In this document: one piece after another, positions 27,154-41,669 of the stretch
Numbering within the stretch: the stretch's first letter is position 1
Layout: each line of letters begins with the position of its first letter
From: Roseovarius sp.
Lineage (GTDB): Bacteria; Pseudomonadota; Alphaproteobacteria; Rhodobacterales; Rhodobacteraceae
Assembly (NCBI RefSeq): GCF_965228755.1
Contig: NZ_CBDDIG010000003.1
Location: 36,507 to 100,506, forward strand
DNA length: 64,000 nucleotides
Reading direction: 5' to 3'
Position numbers and translations under genes: made by a program
The notes under the pieces: generated by a model
Databases searched by the model: none
Told to the model about the DNA's origin: nothing
Seen by the model: the letters and a program-made list of their open reading frames with translations, nothing else

Positions 27154-27415
27154 GATACCCTCTCACCGGGCCCGGGCGGCCCTTGCTCTCGGTCCGCGCC
27201 GATACACATGGCCGGGGCGGCAAAGTCAAGGGCTGCCGCCCTTCCAGCCGCCACGGAAAGGTTGCAAAATCGTTTACAGGTGCATGATTTTCGGCGAAAA
27301 TACCGGTTAGCGAGCAGATAGCCGGGGGAACCGGGTGTTTTTAGGCAGGTTTTACTACATCGCGACAGGGCGCCGTGGGTGGGCGCAGATCCGCAAGACC
27401 AAGATGGGGTGAACC

Positions 27416-28648
27416 ATGTGGGACAAGATTTTCGATGGGTTTCTTACCCATCTCATGCATGTCGGCGATTTCCGGCTTACCTTTCCTGACGGCACGACAC
27501 GGCATTATGGCGACGGGACCGGCAAGCCGATCTCGGTGACGCTGCACGACCCGACCCTGCCGCGCAAGATCATCATGTCGCCCGACATGGCGGTGGGCGA
27601 AGCCTATATGGACGCGCGCCTGACCATCGAGGATGACGACCTGTCCGGCTTCCTCGAGCTGGCCATCCGCAACGTCGGCATGCAGGGCGACCCGTGGTTC
27701 CGCAAGCCGCTGGCGCTGGGGCGGCACATGATGCGCCACCTGCAGCAATTCAACCCCGTGGGCCGGTCGCGCGCGAACGTGGCGCATCACTATGACCTCT
27801 CGGGCGAGCTGTACGACCTGTTCCTCGATGCCGACCGGCAGTATTCCTGCGCCTATTTCCGCCGCCCCGACATGACGCTCGAGGAGGCGCAGGAGGCCAA
27901 GAAGCATCATATCGCCGGCAAGCTGCTGATCGAGCCGGGGATGAAGGTGCTGGATATCGGCTGCGGCTGGGGCGGCATGGGCCTGACGCTGGCGCGCGAT
28001 TACGGCGCCGAGGTCACCGGCGTGACCCTCTCGACCGAGCAGTACAACATGGCCAACAAGCGCGCCGAGGAGGCGGGGCTGGCCGACCGGTGCACCTTCG
28101 AGTTGATGGATTACCGCGACGTGAAGGGCCAGTTCGACCGGATCGTCTCGGTCGGCATGTTCGAGCACGTGGGCATCCCGCATTACGAGGAATATTTCCG
28201 CACGGTGAAGCGCCTGCTGACCGATGACGGCATCGCGCTCATCCACACGATCGGCCGGTCCGACCCGCCGGGCACGACGAGCCCGTGGATCCTGAAATAC
28301 ATCTTCCCCGGCGGCTATTGCCCGGCCCTGTCGGAAGCGATGCGGCCGATCGAGAACCAGGACCTGTTCGCGACCGATGTCGAGGTCTGGCGCCTGCATT
28401 ACGCCGAGACGCTGCGCCACTGGCACGACCGGTTCATGGCCAATATCGACCGCGCGCGGGAGCTGTATGACGACCGGTTCTGCCGGATGTGGCGCTATTA
28501 CCTGATCGCCTGCGAGATGACGTTCCGCCACAACCGGCAAGTTGTGTTCCAGTTCCAGCTGACCAAGCAGCAGGACGCGGTGCCGCTGACGCGGGATTAC
28601 CTGTATTGCCAGGACGAGAAGGACGATCTGCGCCACGCGGCGGAGTGA
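27416..28648 (+). CDS. cfa: cyclopropane-fatty-acyl-phospholipid synthase family methyltransferase
   Basis: HHYDLS, QYSCAYF, LDIGCGWGG, VSVGMFEHVG, YIFPGG. Confidence 0.93.
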   Translation: MWDKIFDGFLTHLMHVGDFRLTFPDGTTRHYGDGTGKPISVTLHDPTLPRKIIMSPDMAVGEAYMDARLTIEDDDLSGFLELAIRNVGMQGDPWFRKPLALGRHMMRHLQQFNPVGRSRANVAHHYDLSGELYDLFLDADRQYSCAYFRRPDMTLEEAQEAKKHHIAGKLLIEPGMKVLDIGCGWGGMGLTLARDYGAEVTGVTLSTEQYNMANKRAEEAGLADRCTFELMDYRDVKGQFDRIVSVGMFEHVGIPHYEEYFRTVKRLLTDDGIALIHTIGRSDPPGTTSPWILKYIFPGGYCPALSEAMRPIENQDLFATDVEVWRLHYAETLRHWHDRFMANIDRARELYDDRFCRMWRYYLIACEMTFRHNRQVVFQFQLTKQQDAVPLTRDYLYCQDEKDDLRHAAE

Positions 28649-28679
28649 TGCCGCGCGACGTTCCCCCGGCCGGTATCGC

Positions 28680-29804
28680 TCAGGCGAAGGCCGGGGTGAG
28701 GCGCCGGGCGAAGCGCGCCTTCCAGAGCGCTTCCTCGTATTCGGACGGGGCGGTGCTGTCATGCACCACGCCGCCGCCCAGGTTGAGCACGGCCCCTGCC
28801 CTCTCCAGCATCAGCGTGCGGATGGCCACGTTGAACTCGGCCCGGCCGTCAGGCGCGGCCCAGCCGATACTGCCGCAATAGATCTCGCGCGGGGCGGTTT
28901 CGAGACCGGCAAGGATCTCCATCGCCCGCAGTTTCGGCGCCCCGGTGATCGAGCCGCAGGGGAAGAGCGCGCGGAAGATGTCCGACAGGCCCGTGCCGCC
29001 GCGCATCTGGCCGGTGACGAGCGAGGTCATCTGGTGGACCGTTTCGTAGCTTTCGACGGCGAAGAGCTCGGGCACGCGGACGCTGCCGGGGGTGCAGACG
29101 CGGGAGATGTCGTTGCGCAGCAGGTCGACGATCATCAGGTTCTCGGCGCGGTTCTTCTCGTCCGATGCGAGGAAGGCGCGGCGGCGGGCGTCCTCGGCCG
29201 GGTCATCGCTGCGGGGCTGGGTGCCTTTCATCGGTCGGGTTTCGATCCGGCCCGTGGCATCGGTGCGGAAGAACAGCTCGGGCGAGCGTGACAGGATGTC
29301 GGGGCCGTCATGGCCGGTGACCAGCGCACCGTGGCGCACCGGCTGGATGGCCGTGAGCGCCGCGTAGAGCGCCTCTGGCGTGCCGTGGGCCTGCATGGTG
29401 ACCGGGAAGGTCAGGTTTGCCTGGTAGATGTCACCGGCGCCGATAAAGGCGTGCACGCGCTCGAAGGCGGCGGTGTAGTCTGCCTCGGACCATGCCGGGC
29501 GGAACCGGTCGAGCGCCGCCGGGCCGGAATGCAGGGGGGCTGCGGATTGCGGCGCCTCGTAGACACCGAAGCAGAGGAGCGGCAGGCGGCGGTTGCCGGG
29601 CATCAGGGCGGCCAGCCGCGGCTCGAGCACATAGCCCAGCTCGTAGCTGGCAAACCCGGCAAGCCACGCGCCGTCGGCACGCGCCGTGTCCAGCGCGGCA
29701 AGCGCGCGGGGCACCTCCGACAGCGTGTCGGCCGTGATCATCCGGCGAGGCGCCCCGAAGAGGGCCGGCCCGCCATCCGGGCCATGATCGAAGCGAATCT
29801 GCAT
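28680..29804 (-). CDS. pabB: aminodeoxychorismate synthase component I
   Basis: [53 protein letters not shown]. Confidence 0.92.
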
Positions 29805-29966
29805 CGTGCTGCATCCTTCTGTCGCCTCCCCGCGCCTGCCTACGCTGTCACGCTTCCGGCCACATCCCCAAAAACGGCAGGTCCACACGGCTTTGCGATC
29901 CCCCTTGCACAGAGGCGCGTGATGGATATAACCGCCAACAATTTGCGCTGCCCCGGGGAAACGACC

Positions 29967-33275
<3,309 letters not shown>

Positions 33276-33487
33276 CGCAACGGCACATAAAACGCAAGCC
33301 ATTGTAAACACGGTATTTTTTTGCGTTATCCACAGCCATGACCGGCGGTCTGCCCGGGTATGCACGGATTGCATAGATTTTAATCTTCATTTCTGTTGCG
33401 CGAATCCACTTGCGCCATATATGCGGGCTATGAGCCGCAGCGAAACGCGACTCGGACCTGACCCACTCTAGACCCAGGAGGCTGGAC

Positions 33488-33610
33488 ATGACCCGCGATG
33501 AACTGAACCGCGAACTTCGTATGCATAGTGCCACCTGGCAGTCGGTTGTGCTGGTATACGGTCTGCTCGTCGGTACGCTGGTGCTCTCGGCAATGGCCAT
33601 CACCGCATAA
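33488..33610 (+). CDS. 40-aa single-TM small protein, paralog A
   Basis: MTRDELNRELRMHSATWQSVVLVYGLLVGTLVLSAMAITA; AGGAGG SD; absent from ORF track. Confidence 0.8.
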   Translation: MTRDELNRELRMHSATWQSVVLVYGLLVGTLVLSAMAITA

Positions 33611-33664
33611 AGGCAGGGCGGGCGCCCCCTGCGCCCGGTACCACGCTCTTCACAACCGAAAAGG

Positions 33665-33700
33665 CGCCGGGCGGTATCTACCGCGCGGCGTTTGTAGTTT
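33665..33700 (+). terminator. possible terminator after paralog A
   Basis: CGCCG-G-GCGGTA...TACCGC-G-CGGCG followed by TTTGTAGTTT. Confidence 0.45.
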
Positions 33701-33752
33701 GACACCCCCGGACGGCATCGTGCTGTCCCCCGTTCCGGGAAGGAAACCGAGA

Positions 33753-33875
33753 ATGACACGAGATGAGCTGAACCGCGAGCTGCGCATGCACAGCGCAAGC
33801 TGGCAATCGGTGGTGATCGTCTATGGCCTCATCGTTGCGGCGATGGTGGGCTCGGCCATGTGGATCATCGGCTGA
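33753..33875 (+). CDS. 40-aa single-TM small protein, paralog B
   Basis: MTRDELNRELRMHSASWQSVVIVYGLIVAAMVGSAMWIIG; GGAAGGA SD; 30/40 identical to paralog A. Confidence 0.8.
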   Translation: MTRDELNRELRMHSASWQSVVIVYGLIVAAMVGSAMWIIG

Positions 33876-33904
33876 CAATCAGAAAAAATCTGGTATTCGA
33901 CGCG

Positions 33905-33936
33905 AAACGGCGGAGGGGTGACCCTCCGCCGTTTTT
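33905..33936. terminator. bidirectional intrinsic terminator
   Basis: Perfect AAACGGCGGAGGG-gtga-CCCTCCGCCGTTT-TT between convergent genes. Confidence 0.85.
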
Positions 33937-33951
33937 GCTTGTGACGGGCCG

Positions 33952-35661
33952 TCAGCTTCCGCTGGTCTCGGTGCCCTCGACCTTCTCGTCGCCCGGGTCG
34001 ATCCTGGCCGAGGCCGCATCGCCCACGTTGTCGACGCCGCGCTCTTCCAGCAGCGTGGTCAGCCAGTCGGGGTCCATCTCGGGAACCGAGCTGAGCAGCA
34101 GGTCGGTATAGGGGTGGTGCGGGGGCGTGAACATCTCGTCCTTGGGCCCCTGCTCGACCACCTTGCCGTGCTGCATAACCACCACCTCGTCGGCGATCGA
34201 CCGCACGGTGGCAAGGTCATGGGTGATGAACATGTAGGCCAGGTTCAGCTCGTTCTGCAGCCGGTCGAGCAGCTTCAGGATGCCCTCCGCCACAAGCTGG
34301 TCGAGCGCCGATGTCACCTCGTCGCAGATGATGAAGGTGGGCTCGGCCGCCAGCGCCCGGGCGATGCCGATCCGCTGTTTCTGCCCGCCCGACAGCTCTG
34401 GCGGGAAGCGGTTGTAGAACTTCGACGGTTCCAGCTCGATCAGGTCGAGCAACTCGTCCACCCGGTTCTTGAGCGCCGCGCCGGTCAGGCCGGAATAGAA
34501 CTGCGCTGGCCGGCCGATGATCTCGGAGATCCGCACCTTCGGGTTCAGCGCCGTGTCGGCCATCTGGTAGATCATCTGGCACTGGCGCAACTGGTCGCGG
34601 CTGCGGTCCTTGTAGGAGGGCGGGAAAGGCTCTCCCTTGAACAGCACCTGCCCCTTGGACGGGGGCAGCAGCCCGGTGATCACCCGCGCCGTGGTGGACT
34701 TGCCCGAACCGGATTCGCCCACGACCGCCACGGTCATGCCCTCGTGGATGTCGAAGGACACGTCATCCAGCACCTTCGCCCCGCCGGTATAGGAGGCGTC
34801 GACGTTCTGCACCGAGATGAGCGGCGTGGCGTCCTTGGGCCGGTGCTTCTGATCCCGCTTGAAGCTGCGGACCGCCCAGAGCGACTTGGTATAGTCCTCC
34901 TTCGGGCTTTCCAGCATCTCCTTGGTGGGCGCCTCCTCGACCTCCTCGCCCTTCAGCAGCACCTTGATCGTGTCGGCCATCTGCGCCACGACCGCCAGGT
35001 CGTGGGTGATGTAGATCGCGGCGGTGTTGAACTGATCGACGATGTCGCGGATGGCCGCCAGCACCTCGATCTGGGTGGTCACGTCAAGCGCGGTGGTCGG
35101 CTCGTCGAAGATGATCAGGTCGGGCCGGCAGGACATGGCCATCGCCGTCATCGCCCGCTGAAGCTGCCCGCCCGACACCTGGTGCGGATAGCGGAAGCCG
35201 ATCTCCTCGGGGTTGGGAAGGCGCAGGCGGCGGTAAAGCTCCACCGCGTCCTCCTGCGCCTCCATCCGTTTCTTGATGCGGTATTGCACCGGCGCCTCGG
35301 TGTGCTGGTCGATCAGCTTGTGCGCCGGGTTGAACGAGGCCGCCGCCGATTGTGCCACGTAGGCGATCCGCGAGCCCCGTAGGGCGCGCCTCTCGCTTTC
35401 GCTGGCGGTCGTCAGCTCCATCCCGTCGAACTCGATCGAGCCGTCCGAGATGCGCGTGCCGTCGCGGGCATAGCCCATGGCGGCGGCGCCGATGGTGGAT
35501 TTGCCGGCACCGGATTCCCCGATCAGGCCCATCACCTCGCCACGGTGGAGGGTCAGGTCGACCCCCTTGATGATGTCGATCCACTGCTCGTCGCTGTAGC
35601 CCTGGATCTTCAGGTTCTTCACCTTGAGCAGGACATCGCTGTCCTTGAACTTGGTCGCCAT
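33952..35661 (-). CDS. peptide/nickel-type ABC transporter ATP-binding protein (two fused NBDs)
   Basis: GESGAGKS and GESGSGKS Walker A; VSGGQLQR and LSGGQKQR signatures. Confidence 0.95.
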   Translation of the reverse strand: MATKFKDSDVLLKVKNLKIQGYSDEQWIDIIKGVDLTLHRGEVMGLIGESGAGKSTIGAAAMGYARDGTRISDGSIEFDGMELTTASESERRALRGSRIAYVAQSAAASFNPAHKLIDQHTEAPVQYRIKKRMEAQEDAVELYRRLRLPNPEEIGFRYPHQVSGGQLQRAMTAMAMSCRPDLIIFDEPTTALDVTTQIEVLAAIRDIVDQFNTAAIYITHDLAVVAQMADTIKVLLKGEEVEEAPTKEMLESPKEDYTKSLWAVRSFKRDQKHRPKDATPLISVQNVDASYTGGAKVLDDVSFDIHEGMTVAVVGESGSGKSTTARVITGLLPPSKGQVLFKGEPFPPSYKDRSRDQLRQCQMIYQMADTALNPKVRISEIIGRPAQFYSGLTGAALKNRVDELLDLIELEPSKFYNRFPPELSGGQKQRIGIARALAAEPTFIICDEVTSALDQLVAEGILKLLDRLQNELNLAYMFITHDLATVRSIADEVVVMQHGKVVEQGPKDEMFTPPHHPYTDLLLSSVPEMDPDWLTTLLEERGVDNVGDAASARIDPGDEKVEGTETSGS

Positions 35662-35663
35662 TT

Positions 35664-36728
35664 TTATTTCTCCTTCAGGCCAGAGGACCGGAACAGCATC
35701 CAGTCGACCACGAAGTTCACCCCGACCGTCAGCAGCGCGATGGCGGCCGCGGGTATCAGCGGGGTGATGTCTCCGAACGAGATCAGGGTCGCGTTCTCAC
35801 GCACCATCGAGCCCCAGTCCGCCGTGGGCGGCTGAATACCGAGCCCGAGGAACGACAGACCCGCCACCAGCAGGAACACGAAGCAGAATTCCAGACCGAA
35901 CTCGGCCACCAGGGGGGCGGTCGAGTTGGGCAGGATTTCCCGGCGGATGAGGTACCACATGCCCTCGCCGCGCAGCTGCGCGGCCTCGATATAGTCCATC
36001 ACCACGACGTTGCCCGCCACCGCCCGTGTCAGGCGGAAGACGCGCGGCGCGTAGATGATGGCCACGGCGATGATGATCACGATGATCTGCGGCCCGAAGA
36101 TCGACAGCATCAGCAGCGCGAAGATCAGTGACGGGATCGACATGATCACGTCGGCCAGCCGGCCCATGAACTGGTCGAACCAGCCGCCCTTGGTGGCCGC
36201 CAGAAGCCCGGCCAGCGCCCCGAAGAAGAACGCCGCCAGCGTCGCCGACAGGGCCAGCCCCACCGAGTTGCGCGTGCCATAGACGATCCGGCTGAACATG
36301 TCGCGGCCCAGCTGGTCGGCGCCGAGCAGCATGTTCGAATCCGCCGGCGCAAAGGCCGAGGCGATCACCTGTGCCTCACCATAGGGCGCGATCAACGGGG
36401 CGAAGATGCCCATGATCGCGTAGGTGAAGATGACGAACATCCCGAAGGCCGCCGTCAGCGGCGCGGTCCGCAGTTCCTTGGCCATCTCGTCCGAGACCAG
36501 CGCGATCAGGAACTCGCGGAACGCGTAGGAGACCATCGCCGCCAGCGCCAGAACGCCCGCGCAGATCGCGACTGCCCGAAGCGCGCCCGTGCCGCCGATG
36601 ATGCCCAGAACGAAGGACACCAGCGTCAGCGAGAACAGCAGCAGGAACGCCGATCTCTTGTTGAAGTAAGCTGCAAGGCAGGAACCGCCCAGAAGCAGCG
36701 TGTAATATCCGATTACAAACCAGCTCAT
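35664..36728 (-). CDS. ABC permease (DppC-like) with extra N-terminal TM segments
   Basis: LLGADQLGRDMFSR, EAA-like YIEAAQLRG, PPTADWG. Confidence 0.92.
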   Translation of the reverse strand: MSWFVIGYYTLLLGGSCLAAYFNKRSAFLLLFSLTLVSFVLGIIGGTGALRAVAICAGVLALAAMVSYAFREFLIALVSDEMAKELRTAPLTAAFGMFVIFTYAIMGIFAPLIAPYGEAQVIASAFAPADSNMLLGADQLGRDMFSRIVYGTRNSVGLALSATLAAFFFGALAGLLAATKGGWFDQFMGRLADVIMSIPSLIFALLMLSIFGPQIIVIIIAVAIIYAPRVFRLTRAVAGNVVVMDYIEAAQLRGEGMWYLIRREILPNSTAPLVAEFGLEFCFVFLLVAGLSFLGLGIQPPTADWGSMVRENATLISFGDITPLIPAAAIALLTVGVNFVVDWMLFRSSGLKEK

Positions 36729-36740
36729 GTGACTGCCTCC

Positions 36741-37697
36741 TTACTTCGGATGCCGCAGACGCGGGTTGGTGAGAATGGCGCCAACATCGGCTGCGAGATT
36801 GAGCAGGATGAAGGTCGCCGCGAAGATCAGGCAGCAGGCCTGGACAACCGGGAAGTCACGCTTCGACACCGCGTCGACAAGCGCCTGCCCGATGCCGGGA
36901 TAGACATAGACCACCTCGACCAGGACCACGCCGGTAATCAGGTAGGCGAGGTTCAGCGCGACCACGTTGATGATCGGCGCCCAGGCGTTCGGCAGGGCGT
37001 GCTTGACGATCACCCGCCACGGCGGCGCGCCCTTGAGGCGGGCCATCTCGATATAGGGCGAGGCCAGCAGGTTGATGATCGCCGCCCGCGTCATCCGCAT
37101 CATGTGCGCCATCACCACCAGCACCAGCGTCAGCGCCGGCAGGAACGTGCGCTCGAGAAGCTGGAGGAAGGACATCCCCTCGCTCAGGCTCGAGATCGCC
37201 GGGAACATGCCCCATTTGACCGCGAAGTAGAGGATCAGGATGTAGCCGAGGAAGAATTCCGGCGACGAGATGAACGACAGCGACACCACGTTGGCGACCC
37301 GGTCGAAGATCGAGTTGCGCAGCAGCGCCACGATCACGCCGAGGACGATCGAGACCGGCACCGCGATGACCGCGGCATAGGCCGCAAGGAAGAGCGTGTT
37401 CATGAACCGGTCGCTGATCGTGCGGGCGACGGATTCGCCGGTGACGATCGAGTTGCCGAAGTCGAACATGACGGCCCCGCTGAGCCAGTCGAGATACCGG
37501 ATGATCGCCGGCTGATCGAGGCCCATCTCCCGGCGCAGGGCGCGCAGGTTCTCTTCCGTGGCCCCCTGGCCGAGCACCGCCTGGGCGATGTCGCCCGGCA
37601 GCAGTTCGACCATGAAGAAAATGATGACCGAGATGACCAGTAGAATGATCAGCCCGAGCCCGAGCCGTCTTCCAACGAGCCCAAGTATGTCTCCCAT
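36741..37697 (-). CDS. ABC permease (DppB-like)
   Basis: ELLPGD, YIEMARLKG, KHALPNA, RDFPVVQ. Confidence 0.93.
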   Translation of the reverse strand: MGDILGLVGRRLGLGLIILLVISVIIFFMVELLPGDIAQAVLGQGATEENLRALRREMGLDQPAIIRYLDWLSGAVMFDFGNSIVTGESVARTISDRFMNTLFLAAYAAVIAVPVSIVLGVIVALLRNSIFDRVANVVSLSFISSPEFFLGYILILYFAVKWGMFPAISSLSEGMSFLQLLERTFLPALTLVLVVMAHMMRMTRAAIINLLASPYIEMARLKGAPPWRVIVKHALPNAWAPIINVVALNLAYLITGVVLVEVVYVYPGIGQALVDAVSKRDFPVVQACCLIFAATFILLNLAADVGAILTNPRLRHPK

Positions 37698-37858
37698 CTG
37701 TCCCTCCTGCTGTTGCCCCTTGGTCCCGCGCTCATGGCTGTTCCGGTGACCGGGTATACAGATATTTTTAGCCTTGGCGGGCTGGGTATGACTGTCTGGA
37801 TGACCCGCCTAGGCGATGGGTCCGGGCCGGGGCGTCGCGCCGTGGGCCGGACGGTGAA

Positions 37859-37882
37859 GCCCCGGCGCCTTCGCGCCGGGGC
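37859..37882. other. GC-rich stem-loop 3' of SBP 1
   Basis: GCCCCGGCGC-cttc-GCGCCGGGGC, no U-tract. Confidence 0.6.
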
Positions 37883-37895
37883 CGGTCGTGTCGTG

Positions 37896-39506
37896 TCAGC
37901 CCTCGAACCACCAGCGGCTGCAGGCGCGGGCGCCGTCCATCTGCCAGCTCGCGGCCAGTTCCGGCCCGTGCTTGACGTTCTTGCGGCGGGCATAGACGAA
38001 ATCCGGGAAGAACGGGATGACGGTGCCGCCATCGTCCTTCGCGAGGATCGCCATCTCGCGGTACATCTCGGCGCGCTTGGCGTCGTCGATCTCCGACTTG
38101 GCCATCCGCAGCAGTTCGTTGAACCGCTCGTTCTGCCAATGGCTTTCGTTCCACGCCGCATCGTCCTTGTAGGCCAGCGAATACATCACGTCCGGCGTCG
38201 GACGCGCGCCCCACTGCACACAGCACCACGGCTTCTTGAGCCAGACGTCGGAATAGTACCCGTCGTTCGGCTCGCGCTTGACCTTGATATTGATGCCGGC
38301 GGCCTTGGCGTGTTCGGCATAGAGCACGCACATGTCGACCGAACCCGAGAAGACCGAGTCGGCGACGCTGATCTCGACGGTGAGGTCTTCCATCCCCGCC
38401 TTCTTCAGCAGCGACTTGGCCTGGTCGGGGTCATACGGGCGTTGCTCGATATCCTCGGGCCAGTAGGGCATGGCCGGCGAATGGTGGAAATCGTTGCCCA
38501 TGGTCGCCGTGCCGAAGACGATCTTGTCGATGATGTCCTGCCGGTCGATCGACAGTTTAAGCGCGTTGCGCACGTCGACATTGTCGAACGGCGCCTGGTC
38601 GCAGAACATCGGCATGGTGATCGCCGCGGCCGAGGCGACCTGGTCGATCTCGATATTCGGGTCGCGCTGCAGCAGGGCGAGCGTCTTCAGCTCGATCTGC
38701 GTGACCGCGTCGACATCGCCGGTGACCAGCGCGGTCTGGCGCGCGTTGGGGTCGTTCAGCACGGTGACGGTGACGCTGTCGAAATAGGCGCCCTCGAGGT
38801 GCCAGTCCTCGTGCCGCTCGAACTCGTAGCTGACACCGAACTCGGCATTGGTCAGCTTGTACGGGCCACAGCCGTCGCCCGATTTCCAGTCGATCGAGCC
38901 ATCCTCGTTCGCCGGGCAGATCGCCAGGTGATAGTCGGTCATCAGCCAAGGCAGGTCGGCGTTGCCCGAGGCCAGCTTGAACGTGATCGAGCCGTCGCCG
39001 TTGTCGACGATATCGTCGACATCGGTCAGCAGCGCGGTCGCCGCCGAGGTGCTGTCCTCGCCGCGGTGGTGGTTCATCGACGCGATCACGTCGTTCGGCG
39101 TGACCTTGGCCCCGCTGTGGAAGGTGGCGTCCTGGTTCAGCTTGAAGGTCCATTCCTTCGCGTCCTCGGTGGCCGACCAGTCCGTCGCCACGTCCGGCCC
39201 GAGCGAGCCGTCGGGCTCGATCAGGGTCAGGTAGCTGCGGAAGGTATGCGCCACCTGGATCATCGAGAACGACAGGTAAGTGCCCGGATCATGCGTGTCG
39301 GAGGTGTTGCCGTCATGCGCGCCGAGGCGGAAATGGCCGCCCTTCTGCGGTTCGGCCTTGGCAGAGGAGGTCCAGAGACCGGTGGCGGCCGAAGCGGTCA
39401 TCCCCGCGGCCAGCGAATAATTCATGAACGAGCGGCGCGAGATCTTGCCTTCGCGGGCGGCATCCGCCAGCCGGTCGATCATCATCTGATCGTGTTTCTT
39501 GGTCAT
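37896..39506 (-). CDS. family 5 ABC substrate-binding protein, Tat-exported (copy 1, 536 aa)
   Basis: ISRRSFM Tat motif, GCGPYKL, DVRNALKLSIDR; GGGAG SD. Confidence 0.92.
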   Translation of the reverse strand: MTKKHDQMMIDRLADAAREGKISRRSFMNYSLAAGMTASAATGLWTSSAKAEPQKGGHFRLGAHDGNTSDTHDPGTYLSFSMIQVAHTFRSYLTLIEPDGSLGPDVATDWSATEDAKEWTFKLNQDATFHSGAKVTPNDVIASMNHHRGEDSTSAATALLTDVDDIVDNGDGSITFKLASGNADLPWLMTDYHLAICPANEDGSIDWKSGDGCGPYKLTNAEFGVSYEFERHEDWHLEGAYFDSVTVTVLNDPNARQTALVTGDVDAVTQIELKTLALLQRDPNIEIDQVASAAAITMPMFCDQAPFDNVDVRNALKLSIDRQDIIDKIVFGTATMGNDFHHSPAMPYWPEDIEQRPYDPDQAKSLLKKAGMEDLTVEISVADSVFSGSVDMCVLYAEHAKAAGINIKVKREPNDGYYSDVWLKKPWCCVQWGARPTPDVMYSLAYKDDAAWNESHWQNERFNELLRMAKSEIDDAKRAEMYREMAILAKDDGGTVIPFFPDFVYARRKNVKHGPELAASWQMDGARACSRWWFEG

Positions 39507-39715
39507 ATCTTCTCCCTGGTATGTCGTCTTGTTGGACTTGTTCCCGGTCGCTGCCGGGCAATTCTTGGTGTTTCTGGTCCGGTTCCTTCCCCCCGTGCCC
39601 AATGGGCATGTCATTCAGAGGCCGTACGAAGACCGGATTCTTCGATTGTGGTGTGATGTCGGTCCTGGTCCCCTTTTCTTCTTCGTCTTGGGCCGCCGGG
39701 GCGGCCGAATGGCAA

Positions 39716-39740
39716 GGCCCGGCGCACATGGCGCCGGGCC
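39716..39740. other. GC-rich stem-loop 3' of SBP 2
   Basis: GGCCCGGCGC-acatg-GCGCCGGGCC. Confidence 0.6.
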
Positions 39741-39749
39741 CTTTCTGGA

Positions 39750-41360
39750 TCAGTCTTCGAACCACCAGCGGCTTGGGCCGCGGGCGCCGTCAAGCTCCCA
39801 GCTGGCGGCGAGGTTCTCGCCCCGCTTCACGTTGGCCCGGCGCGCGTAGACGAAGTTGTTGAACATCGGGATGATCGTCCCGCCGTCGTCCTTCGCGAGG
39901 ATGGCCATGTCGTGGTACATCTCGGCACGCAGGCTGTCGTCGAGCTCCGACTTGGCTTTCAGCAGAAGGTCGTTGAACTCCTCGTTCTGCCAGCGGCTCT
40001 CGTTCCAGTCGGCGTCGGCCTTGTAGGCCAGCGTGTACATCACGTCGGGCGTGGGGCGCGCGCCCCAGGACACCGCGCAGAACGGTTTCTTCAGCCAGAC
40101 GTCGGAATAGTAGCCGTCGTTCGGCTCGCGTACGACCTTGACGGTGATGCCCGCCTGCTTGGCCTGTTCGGCGTACAGAACGCACAGGTCCACCGCGCCC
40201 GAGAACAGGCTGTCGGCGGTCGAGATGCTGACCGTGAGGTCCTCGGCGCCGGCCTTCTTCAGAAGCGACTTGGCCTGGTCCGGGTCGTATTCCCGCTGTT
40301 CGATATCCTCGGGCCAGTAGGGCTGGGCCGGGGAATGGTGGAAGTCGTTGCCGATCGTGGCCGCGCCGAAGGCGATCTTCTCGATGATCTCGTTGCGGTC
40401 GATCGACAGTTTCAGCGCGTTGCGCACGTTGACATCGTCGAACGGCGCCGTGTCGCAGAACATCGGCATGGTGATCGCGGCCGCCGAGGGCACGTTCTCG
40501 ATCTCGATGTTCGGGTCGCGCTCCAGCAGCGCCGAGGTCTTGATGTCGATCAGCGACACCGCGTCGACATCGCCGGTCACCAGCGCGGTCTGGCGGGCGT
40601 TCGGGTCGTTCAGCACCAGCATCTCGACCTTGTCGAAATAGGCGCCTTCGAGGTGCCAGCCGTCATGCCGGCTCAGCTTCCAGCTGACGCCCCATTCGCC
40701 CTGGTCGATCTTGTAGGGGCCCGAGCCGTCGCCCGACTGCCAGTCGATGCTGCCATCCTCGTTGCCGGGGCAGATGGCGAGGTGATAGTCGGTCATCAGC
40801 CAGGGCAGGTCGGCGATGCCGCTTTCCAGCGAGACGACGACGGTGTGATCGCCATCCGTCGTGACATCGGTCACCGACGTCAGCAGGGATTTCGCCGCCG
40901 AGGTGCTTTCCTCGCCGCGGTGGTGGTTGAGCGAGGCGACAACGTCCGAGGCCATCACCGGCCGGCCGCTGTGGAACGAGGCATCGGGGTTGATCTCGAA
41001 GGTCCAGACCGACGCGTCCTCGTTCGCCGACCAGTCGCTGGCAAGGTCCGGGCCGAGAGAGCCATCGGGCTCGATCAGGGTCAGGTAGCTGCGATACTGG
41101 TGCGCGAGGTAGATCTGCTGCCGCGACACGTACTGGCCGGGGTCGTGGGTGTCCGAGGAGTTGCCGTCATGCATCCCGACGCGGAAGGTGCCGCCCTGCT
41201 TGGGCTGGGCGTTCGCCTTGGTGGTCCAGAGCCCCGTGGCGGCCGAGGCGGACATGCCGGCGGCCAGCGAATAGTTCATGAAGGACCGGCGCGAAATCTT
41301 CCCCTCGCGGGCGGCTTCGGCGAGCCGATCAATCAGGAATTGATCTGTTCTCTTGGTCAT
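39750..41360 (-). CDS. family 5 ABC substrate-binding protein, Tat-exported (copy 2, 536 aa)
   Basis: Paralog of copy 1 with the same length; ISRRSFM; GGGAG SD. Confidence 0.92.
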   Translation of the reverse strand: MTKRTDQFLIDRLAEAAREGKISRRSFMNYSLAAGMSASAATGLWTTKANAQPKQGGTFRVGMHDGNSSDTHDPGQYVSRQQIYLAHQYRSYLTLIEPDGSLGPDLASDWSANEDASVWTFEINPDASFHSGRPVMASDVVASLNHHRGEESTSAAKSLLTSVTDVTTDGDHTVVVSLESGIADLPWLMTDYHLAICPGNEDGSIDWQSGDGSGPYKIDQGEWGVSWKLSRHDGWHLEGAYFDKVEMLVLNDPNARQTALVTGDVDAVSLIDIKTSALLERDPNIEIENVPSAAAITMPMFCDTAPFDDVNVRNALKLSIDRNEIIEKIAFGAATIGNDFHHSPAQPYWPEDIEQREYDPDQAKSLLKKAGAEDLTVSISTADSLFSGAVDLCVLYAEQAKQAGITVKVVREPNDGYYSDVWLKKPFCAVSWGARPTPDVMYTLAYKADADWNESRWQNEEFNDLLLKAKSELDDSLRAEMYHDMAILAKDDGGTIIPMFNNFVYARRANVKRGENLAASWELDGARGPSRWWFED

Positions 41361-41669
41361 ATTGTCTCCCTGGAATTCTTCATAATGTCGGACGGTCCGC
41401 GGGATTGCGGTATCACCGTCAAAGCTTCTCTCCCTTATCGGATTTCGGGCGGCTTGAATGCGACATATTGATAGCAAAACACGAAATCGGCGAGTCTTCC
41501 AGTGTGGAGTTTGCCTTTCCACGATTTTTTGAAGAAAGCCGCATGGATAGGGCCCGCTGTGAAAGCGGCTTACGTCGCGGTCGCGCCGCCCCTCCCGTCA
41601 CCGATCTGACGGGGCGGTCAGAAAACGACATTTCCTGACGCGGCGATTGCATCCGCCACCCGGGCCCGC

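What the first reader, a model, noticed from the sequence alone, without database searches (positions are those of the whole stretch)
33488..33875. Tandem paralogous 40-aa membrane microproteins after carB
Seen: two 123-bp ORFs with strong SDs, 30/40 residues identical. The first 15 residues are identical despite 9 synonymous codon changes, which is clear selection on protein. Each has a charged N-terminal helix (TRDELNRELRMH), then W and one TM helix. A terminator-like hairpin separates them. Copy B has its own TTGACA and a hairpin touching its SD, so the two seem independently regulated. Copy A is missing from the ORF track. Weak inference: H-x-x-T-aromatic plus terminal MAI recalls bacterial aa3 oxidase subunit IV, so they may be swappable accessory subunits of a membrane complex.
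Basis: partly seen in the sequence, partly recalled or inferred. Interest (0 to 1): 0.72.

Follow-up and report, generated by a model that had tools for sequence, protein, structure and literature searches.

The report
Small membrane proteins beside ABC importer
Two real, abundantly transcribed genes for 40-residue membrane proteins belong to an undescribed family that, across marine Alphaproteobacteria, almost always sits tail-to-tail with one highly conserved peptide-type ABC importer, which makes that importer, not cytochrome oxidase, their likely partner.

Summary
ORF A (33488-33610) and ORF B (33753-33875) each encode 40 aa, 30/40 identical. The first 15 residues are identical despite 9 synonymous changes. 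Both are genuine genes. More than 300 homologues exist, all "hypothetical" with no Pfam or NCBIfam family, and codon usage shows protein-level purifying selection. RNA contigs cover 33439-33748 or run on to 33938, at 10-100x the depth of neighbouring genes in one sample. AlphaFold predicts a short cytoplasmic helix, a hinge and one transmembrane helix.

The aa3 oxidase subunit IV idea fails every test, and copy B has no promoter of its own; it appears to be transcribed by read-through of a leaky terminator.

The family is not tied to carB. In Rhodobacterales and Hyphomicrobiales (plus MAGs labelled Rhodospirillales) the gene lies convergent to, and mostly within 250 bp of, the fused ATPase gene of one highly conserved PepT-type ABC importer. 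This holds for 34/34 loci found from the small protein outside Roseovarius and 69/79 loci of the Roseovarius-centred set, while the other flank varies. A conserved promoter (TTG-N19/20-TAnnTG, RpoH-like) and an upstream dyad precede it.

Best reading: an independently regulated accessory or regulatory small subunit of that importer, duplicated in Roseovarius. Binding is untested.

The parts
33360..33381 (+). Conserved upstream dyad ATGCA-N5-TGCAT followed by AGATTTT; a presumed transcription-factor site centred about 64 bp upstream of the predicted start
   Evidence: Consensus GCATGCAAAAAATGCATGGATTTT in 71 aligned Roseovarius-type upstream regions. Related versions occur in Roseibium, Hoeflea and others. 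It is the only exact match in the 64-kb window.
33396..33423 (+). Promoter: -35 TTGCGC (33396-33401) and -10-like TATATG (33418-33423)
   Evidence: TTG-N19/20-TAnnTG occurs in 109 of 134 unique upstream regions, against 3.2 (maximum 8) in shuffles, at a median of 57 nt before the ATG. It matches the TTG / A-12 / T-9 features of R. sphaeroides RpoH promoters (PMC3441632). Which sigma factor uses it was not tested.
33431..33441 (+). Transcript 5' end region
   Evidence: RNA contigs begin at 33439-33441 in runs X25, X26, X30 and X33, and at 33447-33451 in X27 and X29. The position predicted from the -10 element is about 33431.
33476..33481 (+). Shine-Dalgarno AGGAGG of copy A
   Evidence: Nearly invariant in the alignment of related loci. 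The 5' UTR is not significantly structured (z = 0.32).
33488..33610 (+). Copy A, 40 aa: MTRDELNRELRMHSATWQSVVLVYGLLVGTLVLSAMAITA
   Evidence: dN/dS is 0.09 for the N-terminus and 0.16 for the TM segment. AF2 gives pLDDT 95.6 with helices at 3-12 and 17-39.
33662..33700 (+). Leaky intrinsic terminator between A and B (13-pair stem plus T-rich tail)
   Evidence: RNA contig 3' ends fall at 33647-33748 in seven runs, while X29 and X34 contigs run through it. A terminator-like hairpin is present in 24 of 53 A-B spacers by a strict criterion.
33739..33745 (+). Weaker Shine-Dalgarno (GAAGGAA) of copy B
   Evidence: Read directly from the sequence. Similar AAGGA/GAGG motifs occur in other loci.
33753..33875 (+). 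Copy B, 40 aa: MTRDELNRELRMHSASWQSVVIVYGLIVAAMVGSAMWIIG
   Evidence: dN/dS is about 0.25. It is the copy nearer the ABC operon, and in most Roseovarius loci it keeps the outgroup residue Ile7.
33906..33938 (.). Strong hairpin terminator shared by the convergent small-protein unit and the ABC ATPase gene
   Evidence: Fold of -38.4 kcal/mol, z = -5.0. RNA contigs end at 33937/33938 in X29 and X34. The ATPase stop codon lies at 33952.
33952..41522 (-). Linked neighbour: PepT-family ABC importer operon, with two SBP_bac_5 genes, permeases of 318 and 354 aa, and a fused double ATPase of 569 aa
   Evidence: Pfam and NCBIfam hits. The ATPase gene is convergent and adjacent to the small gene in 69/79 loci, 47/51 loci and 32-34/34 loci.

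Best explanation
Shown: A and B are real genes for 40-residue proteins predicted to span the membrane once, with a conserved polar N-terminal helix (R3, D4, L6, R8, E9, R11), a short hinge, and a C-terminus that ends with the TM helix. They belong to an undescribed family found in marine Alphaproteobacteria. They are transcribed from one conserved promoter upstream of A into an abundant short mRNA that either stops at a leaky terminator after A or continues through B to the terminator at 33938. The family's gene is almost always convergent to, and mostly 23-250 bp from, the ATPase gene of one highly conserved PepT-type ABC importer.

Inferred: the N-terminus faces the cytoplasm. The protein inserts into the inner membrane and binds a larger membrane complex through its TM helix (invariant Tyr24, small-xxx-small G/A25...G/A29, S34-A35) and its cytoplasmic helix. 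The adjacent ABC importer is the prime candidate. The small protein would act as an accessory or regulatory subunit made under its own control, which may respond to stress (RpoH-like promoter plus a dyad-binding factor). Roseovarius duplicated the gene inside the transcription unit. This gave a highly constrained, more strongly expressed isoform A and a faster-evolving isoform B whose level is set by terminator read-through.
For: Reality of the genes: homologues; invariant residues across synonymous codons, including both serine codon families; dN/dS of 0.09-0.26.

Fold: AF2 pLDDT 95.6 with helix-hinge-helix; hydropathy of residues 17-40 and conserved positions.

Transcription: contig 5' ends at 33439-33441 and 3' ends at the two terminators; depth 112-182 in the 667-bp bin holding the locus (contigs 100-300), against 18 or less in every other bin of 20 kb, in X29 and X34. 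The 5' UTR is unstructured and carries AGGAGG.

Promoter: conserved across orders. No such promoter occurs before B in any of 53 spacers.

ABC linkage: 69/79 loci of the Roseovarius-centred set. Starting from the Roseibium ATPase, 51/80 orthologous operons in many genera carry a family member, 47 of them convergent within about 250 bp. Starting from the small protein outside Roseovarius, 32/34 loci were scored adjacent, and the other two have ATPase fragments in the same position. The far flank differs: a rough count gives 34 neighbour families among 48 loci.

Precedent: small membrane proteins that bind transporters, such as KdpF, AcrZ and MgtS (PMC12648545).
Against: No physical interaction has been tested, and no co-fold could be run. 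The gene is convergent to the ABC operon rather than inside it, and its RNA is far more abundant than the operon's, which does not suit a 1:1 structural subunit. Eight Roseovarius-clade loci keep the small genes next to carB with ribBA, ahcY or other genes downstream instead of the ABC operon. Conversely, 29 of 80 orthologous ABC operons have no such gene beside them and no fused equivalent. Conservation in the TM helix is not confined to one face (permutation p = 0.10). The RNA evidence consists of unstranded assembled contigs from coded runs. There is no direct evidence of translation (no Ribo-seq or MS).
Confidence: 0.5

Rival explanations
1. The proteins are autonomous stress-induced small membrane proteins. 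They belong to an RpoH-type heat or oxidative stress regulon and act on the membrane or on another target, for example by oligomerising through their small-xxx-small motif. Their position next to the ABC operon reflects only a shared bidirectional terminator or long-standing co-inheritance.
For: The promoter has TTG, A-12 and T-9 as in RpoH promoters, and a conserved G where sigma-70 promoters have the last T of TATAAT. RNA abundance is very high and out of proportion to the ABC genes. Conservation runs all around the TM helix. Eight loci lack the ABC neighbour.
Against: Adjacency to the same ATPase gene persists across orders while the other flank changes repeatedly, which is hard to explain without a functional tie. 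The RpoH assignment is by sequence resemblance only. The conditions of the RNA runs are unknown.
Confidence: 0.28
2. The locus works mainly at the RNA or transcription level. Strong convergent transcription, or a read-through antisense RNA, modulates expression of the ABC operon, and the peptides are secondary.
For: The convergent arrangement has a short spacer (23-250 bp) and a shared terminator. The small unit is transcribed much more strongly than the operon.
Against: Amino-acid sequence is conserved with free synonymous change, whereas the spacer and UTR sequences are not conserved between genera. The terminator after B is strong, and contigs stop at 33937/33938.
Confidence: 0.07
3. They are type I toxin-like, membrane-damaging peptides held in check by an antisense RNA.
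For: They are small hydrophobic single-TM peptides, present in tandem copies, with structured RNA downstream of A.
Against: The 5' UTR is unstructured and the strong SD is exposed. The mRNA is abundant. The locus is stable and vertically conserved rather than patchy and multi-copy. Constraint on the polar N-terminal residues is very strong (dN/dS 0.09). There is no hit in PADLOC or PHROGs. The presence of an antisense RNA could not be checked because the contigs are unstranded.
Confidence: 0.04
4. They are alternative forms of bacterial aa3 cytochrome c oxidase subunit IV.
For: Both are small proteins with a polar N-terminus and one TM helix. There is a superficial H-x-x-T-aromatic motif and a terminal MAI.
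Against: PF07835 gives no hit, while Paracoccus subunit IV scores 59.7 bits. hhalign probability is 4.9% over 8 columns, in a different register. A profile search of the PDB does not find the oxidase chains 7ATE_D or 1M56_D. His13 is replaced in many members. No cta genes are nearby.
Confidence: 0.02

Closest known systems
Small membrane proteins that bind transporters: KdpF-KdpABC, AcrZ-AcrB, MgtS/MgtR-MgtA (review PMC12648545)
   Same: They are 50 aa or shorter with one TM helix. Some are encoded next to the partner (kdpF) and some are regulated separately (acrZ, mgtS). The proposed mode of action, binding a large transporter within the membrane, is the same.
   Different: There is no sequence similarity. 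The candidate partner is an ABC importer, a target class that the 2025 review does not mention (0 occurrences of 'ABC transporter'). The gene is convergent to the operon rather than in it. Binding is untested.
CydX / CioY with cytochrome bd-type oxidases
   Same: These small-protein partners were recognised through conserved synteny with their complex. They too are single-TM proteins of 34-37 aa.
   Different: CydX lies co-directionally downstream in the cyd operon and is a stoichiometric subunit. Here the orientation is convergent, with a separate promoter and excess RNA.
Bacterial aa3 cytochrome c oxidase subunit IV (Pfam PF07835, COX4_pro_2)
   Same: Similar size class (about 40-50 aa), with a polar N-terminus and one TM helix.
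   Different: All homology tests were negative, and the genomic context is different.
Phospholamban / sarcolipin-type regulators of P-type ATPases (own knowledge, not tested)
   Same: The architecture is alike: a cytoplasmic helix, a hinge and a TM helix that ends at the far face of the membrane.
   Different: These are eukaryotic, unrelated in sequence and act on a different class of transporter. The comparison is an analogy only.
Type I toxins (Hok, Ldr, Ibs, TisB)
   Same: Short hydrophobic peptides, sometimes in tandem copies.
   Different: Here the ribosome-binding site is exposed, the locus is stable and syntenic, and the polar domain is strongly constrained. No antitoxin RNA has been identified.

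Membership tests
aa3 cytochrome c oxidase subunit IV (PF07835 COX4_pro_2) | Scores above the Pfam gathering threshold (22 bits) | tested here: not met
   No Pfam family for A or B even at E <= 10. The positive control, Paracoccus subunit IV, scores 59.7 bits.
aa3 cytochrome c oxidase subunit IV (PF07835 COX4_pro_2) | Profile-level similarity to a subunit IV with a solved structure | tested here: not met
   hhalign of A1 against 7ATE_D gives probability 4.9% over 8 columns. A profile search of the PDB returns no oxidase chain.
   Position 13 is H in 95, R in 12 and Q in 9 of 119 sequences. It is mostly R, Q or other residues in members from other genera.
aa3 cytochrome c oxidase subunit IV (PF07835 COX4_pro_2) | Physical association with the oxidase, or cta gene context | tested here: not met
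   The neighbours are aspS, an unknown gene, carB and an ABC importer operon. Physical association cannot be tested here.
Bacterial small membrane proteins acting as accessory or regulatory subunits of transporters | Protein of 50 aa or fewer with one transmembrane helix | tested here: met
   Length is 38-41 aa throughout the family. AF2 predicts a helix at 17-39 with pLDDT 95.6. Mean Kyte-Doolittle hydropathy is 1.76 for residues 17-40.
Bacterial small membrane proteins acting as accessory or regulatory subunits of transporters | The ORF is translated | tested here: inconclusive
   Codon-level purifying selection, a conserved AGGAGG and abundant mRNA point to translation. No Ribo-seq or MS data were available.
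Bacterial small membrane proteins acting as accessory or regulatory subunits of transporters | Conserved genomic linkage to the partner's genes | tested here: met
   Convergent adjacency to the same ABC ATPase gene in 69/79, 47/51 and 32-34/34 loci, with a variable opposite flank.
Bacterial small membrane proteins acting as accessory or regulatory subunits of transporters | Direct binding to the transporter and an effect on it | not testable with these tools
   No multimer prediction or experiment was available. No Rosetta-stone fusion was found in operons that lack the gene.
Type I toxin-antitoxin | Translation blocked by mRNA structure, and an antisense or overlapping antitoxin RNA | tested here: inconclusive
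   The SD is not sequestered (z = 0.32), which argues against this. Antisense RNA cannot be judged from unstranded contigs.
RpoH (sigma-32 family) dependent promoters of Alphaproteobacteria | TTG at about -36..-34, with A at -12 and T at -9 (PMC3441632) | tested here: met
   TTG-N19/20-TAnnTG occurs in 109/134 upstream regions against 3.2 in shuffles. The spacing is one base shorter than in R. sphaeroides in 80 of the 109.
RpoH (sigma-32 family) dependent promoters of Alphaproteobacteria | Transcription depends on RpoH and is induced by heat or oxidative stress | not testable with these tools
   The conditions of the RNA runs are coded, and no mutant data exist.

The most novel reading that the evidence does not exclude
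The family is a dedicated small-protein partner of a highly conserved PepT-type ABC importer in marine Alphaproteobacteria. It would be a separately transcribed, possibly stress-controlled (RpoH-like promoter plus dyad-binding factor) single-TM peptide that binds the permease/ATPase complex and tunes its activity or stability. Roseovarius would carry two isoforms whose ratio is set by a leaky terminator. This would be a little-documented kind of post-translational control of a binding-protein-dependent ABC importer by a 40-residue membrane peptide; the 2025 review consulted lists no such partner.
Probability: 0.33. Interest if true: 0.75.

Novelty: new member of a known kind. Interest (0 to 1): 0.62.

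Why it matters
Small membrane proteins are under-annotated, and few have known partners. This family is conserved and abundantly transcribed, has no Pfam or NCBIfam family and is annotated only as 'hypothetical'. Its partner hypothesis comes from unusually clean synteny across at least two alphaproteobacterial orders. The partner is an ABC importer that is itself 84-99% identical across genera and so is probably important for marine heterotrophs such as Roseovarius, Roseibium, Hoeflea and Tropicimonas. If the link is physical, it adds ABC importers to the list of transporters controlled by small proteins. It would also give a handle on how peptide uptake responds to stress. If the link is not physical, the conserved promoter and dyad still define a small stress-type regulon element that can be tested in culturable strains.

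Tried and rejected
- Pfam, NCBIfam, PHROGs and PADLOC scans of both proteins gave no family.
- Rfam on 33000-34200 gave only sub-threshold chance hits.
- A PDB sequence-profile search gave one meaningless TM match at E = 2.3. Foldseek against the PDB with the AF2 model gave no match.
- aa3 subunit IV is rejected.
- SecE (amphipathic helix, W-P hinge, TM helix) scored 0.2% by hhalign, and the LH1 beta polypeptide scored 8.4%. Both are rejected.
- Flp pilin, CcoQ/CcoS, CydX and CcmD were considered from memory. The motif spacing or topology does not fit, and Pfam gave no hit.
- Sigma-54 reading of the dyad: the spacing is 2 nt too short and it lies about 65 nt from the RNA 5' end. Rejected by inspection.
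- A promoter of its own for B: the TTGACA at 33698 has no -10 element and is not conserved, and 0/53 spacers carry the family promoter.
- A second target of the dyad within +/-5 kb of 80 loci: none was found.
- Rosetta-stone fusion in ABC operons that lack the small gene: none was found.
- Literature searches for locus tags, the peptide sequence, and Roseovarius small proteins found nothing relevant.
- The first carB synteny run used a wrong reading frame and was redone.
- The search for related loci could not use a single 40-aa protein or the too-diverse alignment A2.

Full report
**Observation.** A is 33488..33610 and B is 33753..33875, both on the + strand and each 40 codons plus a stop. 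Thirty of 40 residues are identical. The first 15 residues are identical with exactly 9 synonymous codon differences. A is preceded by AGGAGG (33476-33481), B by a weaker GAAGGAA. A hairpin with a T-rich tail lies between them, and a strong terminator follows B.

**They are genes.**
- A word-indexed search returned 150 homologues, all 39-40 aa once mis-called N-terminal extensions are ignored. All are 'hypothetical protein' with no Pfam domain.
- An exhaustive HMMER search of 1.84 billion cluster representatives found 52 clusters. A broader profile found 340 proteins.
- Across 70 distinct copy-A coding sequences the residues are invariant while codons vary freely. Arg3 uses CGC, CGG, CGT and AGG. 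Ser14 uses AGT, AGC, TCG, TCT and TCC.
- Pairwise dN/dS is 0.09 (N-terminus) and 0.16 (TM) for A, and about 0.25 for B.
- Neither protein matches Pfam, NCBIfam, PHROGs or PADLOC. The region matches no Rfam family.

**Protein anatomy.**
- AlphaFold2 with the family alignment predicts a helix at 3-12, a break at 13-16 and a helix at 17-39, with mean pLDDT 95.6.
- Residues 17-40 are hydrophobic (mean Kyte-Doolittle 1.76). Residues 1-16 carry three basic and three acidic residues.
- Over 119 distinct family sequences, Tyr24 is essentially invariant. R3, D4, L6, R8, E9 and R11 are nearly so.
- Positions 25 and 29 are G or A (small-xxx-small), and 34-35 are S/T followed by A/G.
- The protein ends with the TM helix. 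An N-in, C-out topology is inferred, not shown.
- Conservation in the TM helix is not restricted to one face (p = 0.10).

**Transcription unit.**
- Upstream of A, related loci share a dyad ATGCA-N5-TGCAT followed by GATTTT (window 33360-33381), then TTGCG (33396) and TAnnTG (33418-33423).
- Across Rhodobacterales and Hyphomicrobiales, 109 of 134 distinct upstream regions contain TTG-N19/20-TAnnTG. Shuffles give 3.2 (maximum 8). The motif lies a median of 57 nt before the start codon.
- The invariant G replaces the last T of a sigma-70 TATAAT. The pattern TTG ... TA..T fits the TTG(-36..-34), A-12 and T-9 features reported for R. sphaeroides RpoHI/RpoHII promoters (PMC3441632). The sigma factor assignment is therefore an inference.
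- Assembled RNA-seq contigs from eight coded public runs cover the locus. Their 5' ends fall at 33439-33441 in four runs.
- Their 3' ends fall at 33647-33748, around the spacer terminator, or at 33937/33938, exactly at the U-tract of the terminator after B.
- In runs X29 and X34 the 667-bp bin holding the locus has a mean word depth of 112-182, with individual contigs at 100-300. Every other bin of the surrounding 20 kb, carB included, is at 18 or less.
- The 5' UTR is unstructured.
- None of the 53 A-B spacers carries the family promoter. The window's TTGACA lies in the terminator tail, lacks a -10 element and is not conserved.
- B is therefore best explained as expressed by read-through, at roughly half the level of A in X29 and X34. 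Those B-spanning contigs come from a 95%-identical strain, so this ratio is uncertain.

**Context and distribution.**
- In the window the unit lies between carB and a convergent PepT-family ABC importer operon. The operon has two SBP_bac_5 genes, permeases of 318 and 354 aa and a fused 569-aa ATPase.
- Among 79 related loci with adequate flanks, 63 have carB upstream and 69 have the ATPase gene convergent just downstream. Fourteen keep the ABC operon with a different upstream gene, and eight keep carB without the ABC operon.
- The family is not confined to Roseovarius. A homologue in Roseibium alexandrii (Hyphomicrobiales) lies in the same tail-to-tail position next to an ATPase that is 85% identical to the window's.
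- Starting from the Roseibium ATPase, 51 of 80 orthologous operons have a family member. The genera include Roseibium, Stappia, Oricola, Ahrensia, Hoeflea, Maritimibacter, Aliiruegeria, Tropicimonas, Leisingera, Amaricoccus, Jannaschia and Vannielia, plus MAGs labelled Rhodospirillales. In 47 of the 51 it is convergent within about 250 bp.
- Starting instead from the small protein outside Roseovarius, 32 of 34 loci were scored adjacent. The other two have ATPase fragments in the same place.
- The far flank is highly variable. A rough longest-ORF clustering gives 34 neighbour families among 48 loci.
- The 29 ABC operons without the gene (Thalassobaculum, Minwuia, Hyphomicrobiaceae and others) have no small hydrophobic ORF there and no fused equivalent.

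**Duplication.**
- A tandem pair was detected only in the Roseovarius-centred set (about 50 of 85 loci). Loci from other genera hold a single copy next to the ATPase gene, except one Aliiruegeria locus with a second copy about 2 kb away.
- Copy A always has Asn7. Outgroups always have Ile7. Copy B has Ile7 in 28 and Asn7 in 19 of 47 distinct sequences.
- B therefore more often keeps the ancestral state. In the window's lineage B has acquired A's N-terminal sequence, either by conversion followed by synonymous drift or by parallel selection.

**Known families.**
- aa3 oxidase subunit IV fails on the Pfam score, on hhalign (4.9%) and on the PDB profile search. It also fails on motif conservation and on gene context.
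- SecE and LH1 beta resemblances also fail.
- A type I toxin is unlikely, given the exposed SD, the stable synteny and the strong constraint on polar residues.

**Mechanism.**
- The most economical reading is a separately regulated small membrane protein that acts on the neighbouring ABC importer. This would be analogous to KdpF, AcrZ or MgtS acting on their transporters (PMC12648545).
- Against a simple structural-subunit model stand the convergent orientation, the excess of RNA over the operon's, and operons and small genes that occur without each other. A regulatory or conditional partner fits better.
- The main rival is a stress-induced membrane protein with another target. An RNA-level role for convergent transcription is a minor rival.
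- Binding, topology, translation and the sigma factor all remain untested.

**Limits.** The RNA data are unstranded assembled contigs from runs whose organisms and conditions are coded. The high depth comes from one sample. The gene-neighbourhood counts depend on which loci the searches returned.

Noticed in passing
window 33952-41522 (- strand); loci L094-L173: The PepT-family ABC importer has a fused double ATPase, two permeases and two SBP_bac_5 genes. Its ATPase is 84-99% identical across many genera of at least two alphaproteobacterial orders, with more than 591 hits, which is unusual conservation for a transporter. The full-length fused-ATPase NCBIfam models (YejF, GsiA) are far below cutoff; only single-domain nickel/opine ATPase models (NikD, NikE, marginally CntD) pass. 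In Roseibium and L089 it neighbours GntR, M24 peptidase/creatinase, amidase, DAO, DHDPS-like and aldehyde dehydrogenase genes, so Pro/Hyp-peptide uptake is a guess.
   Followed up: partly
window 33360-33381: A 15-bp dyad, ATGCA-N5-TGCAT, followed by GATTTT, is conserved upstream of the small-protein promoter across genera. It occurs once in the 64-kb window. The binding factor is unknown, and no second site was found within +/-5 kb in 80 loci.
   Followed up: partly
window 27341-28762 (- strand): A 473-aa ORF between aspS and carB has no Pfam or NCBIfam hit. It is conserved at 43-90% identity in some Roseovarius loci.
   Followed up: no
window 29310-33275: The mechanical carB ORF starts about 650 nt upstream of the likely true start (about 29958, MPKRTDISS...). 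Several long GC-rich shadow ORFs overlap carB and the small-gene region, for example 33061..33798 on the - strand.
   Followed up: no
window 33938 (run X29): The RNA contig that ends at the terminator after B continues into about 30 A-rich letters that are not in the genome. This could be polyadenylation or an assembly chimera.
   Followed up: no
L154 4278-4397 and 6458-6577: Aliiruegeria sabulilitoris has a second family copy about 2 kb beyond the ABC-adjacent one, so duplication is not exclusive to Roseovarius.
   Followed up: no
L008, L012, L019, L033, L042, L043, L052, L072: In a Roseovarius-clade subset the small genes stay next to carB, but ribBA, an FkbM-type methyltransferase, ahcY or other genes replace the ABC operon downstream. 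Whether the operon is elsewhere in those genomes or lost is unknown.
   Followed up: partly
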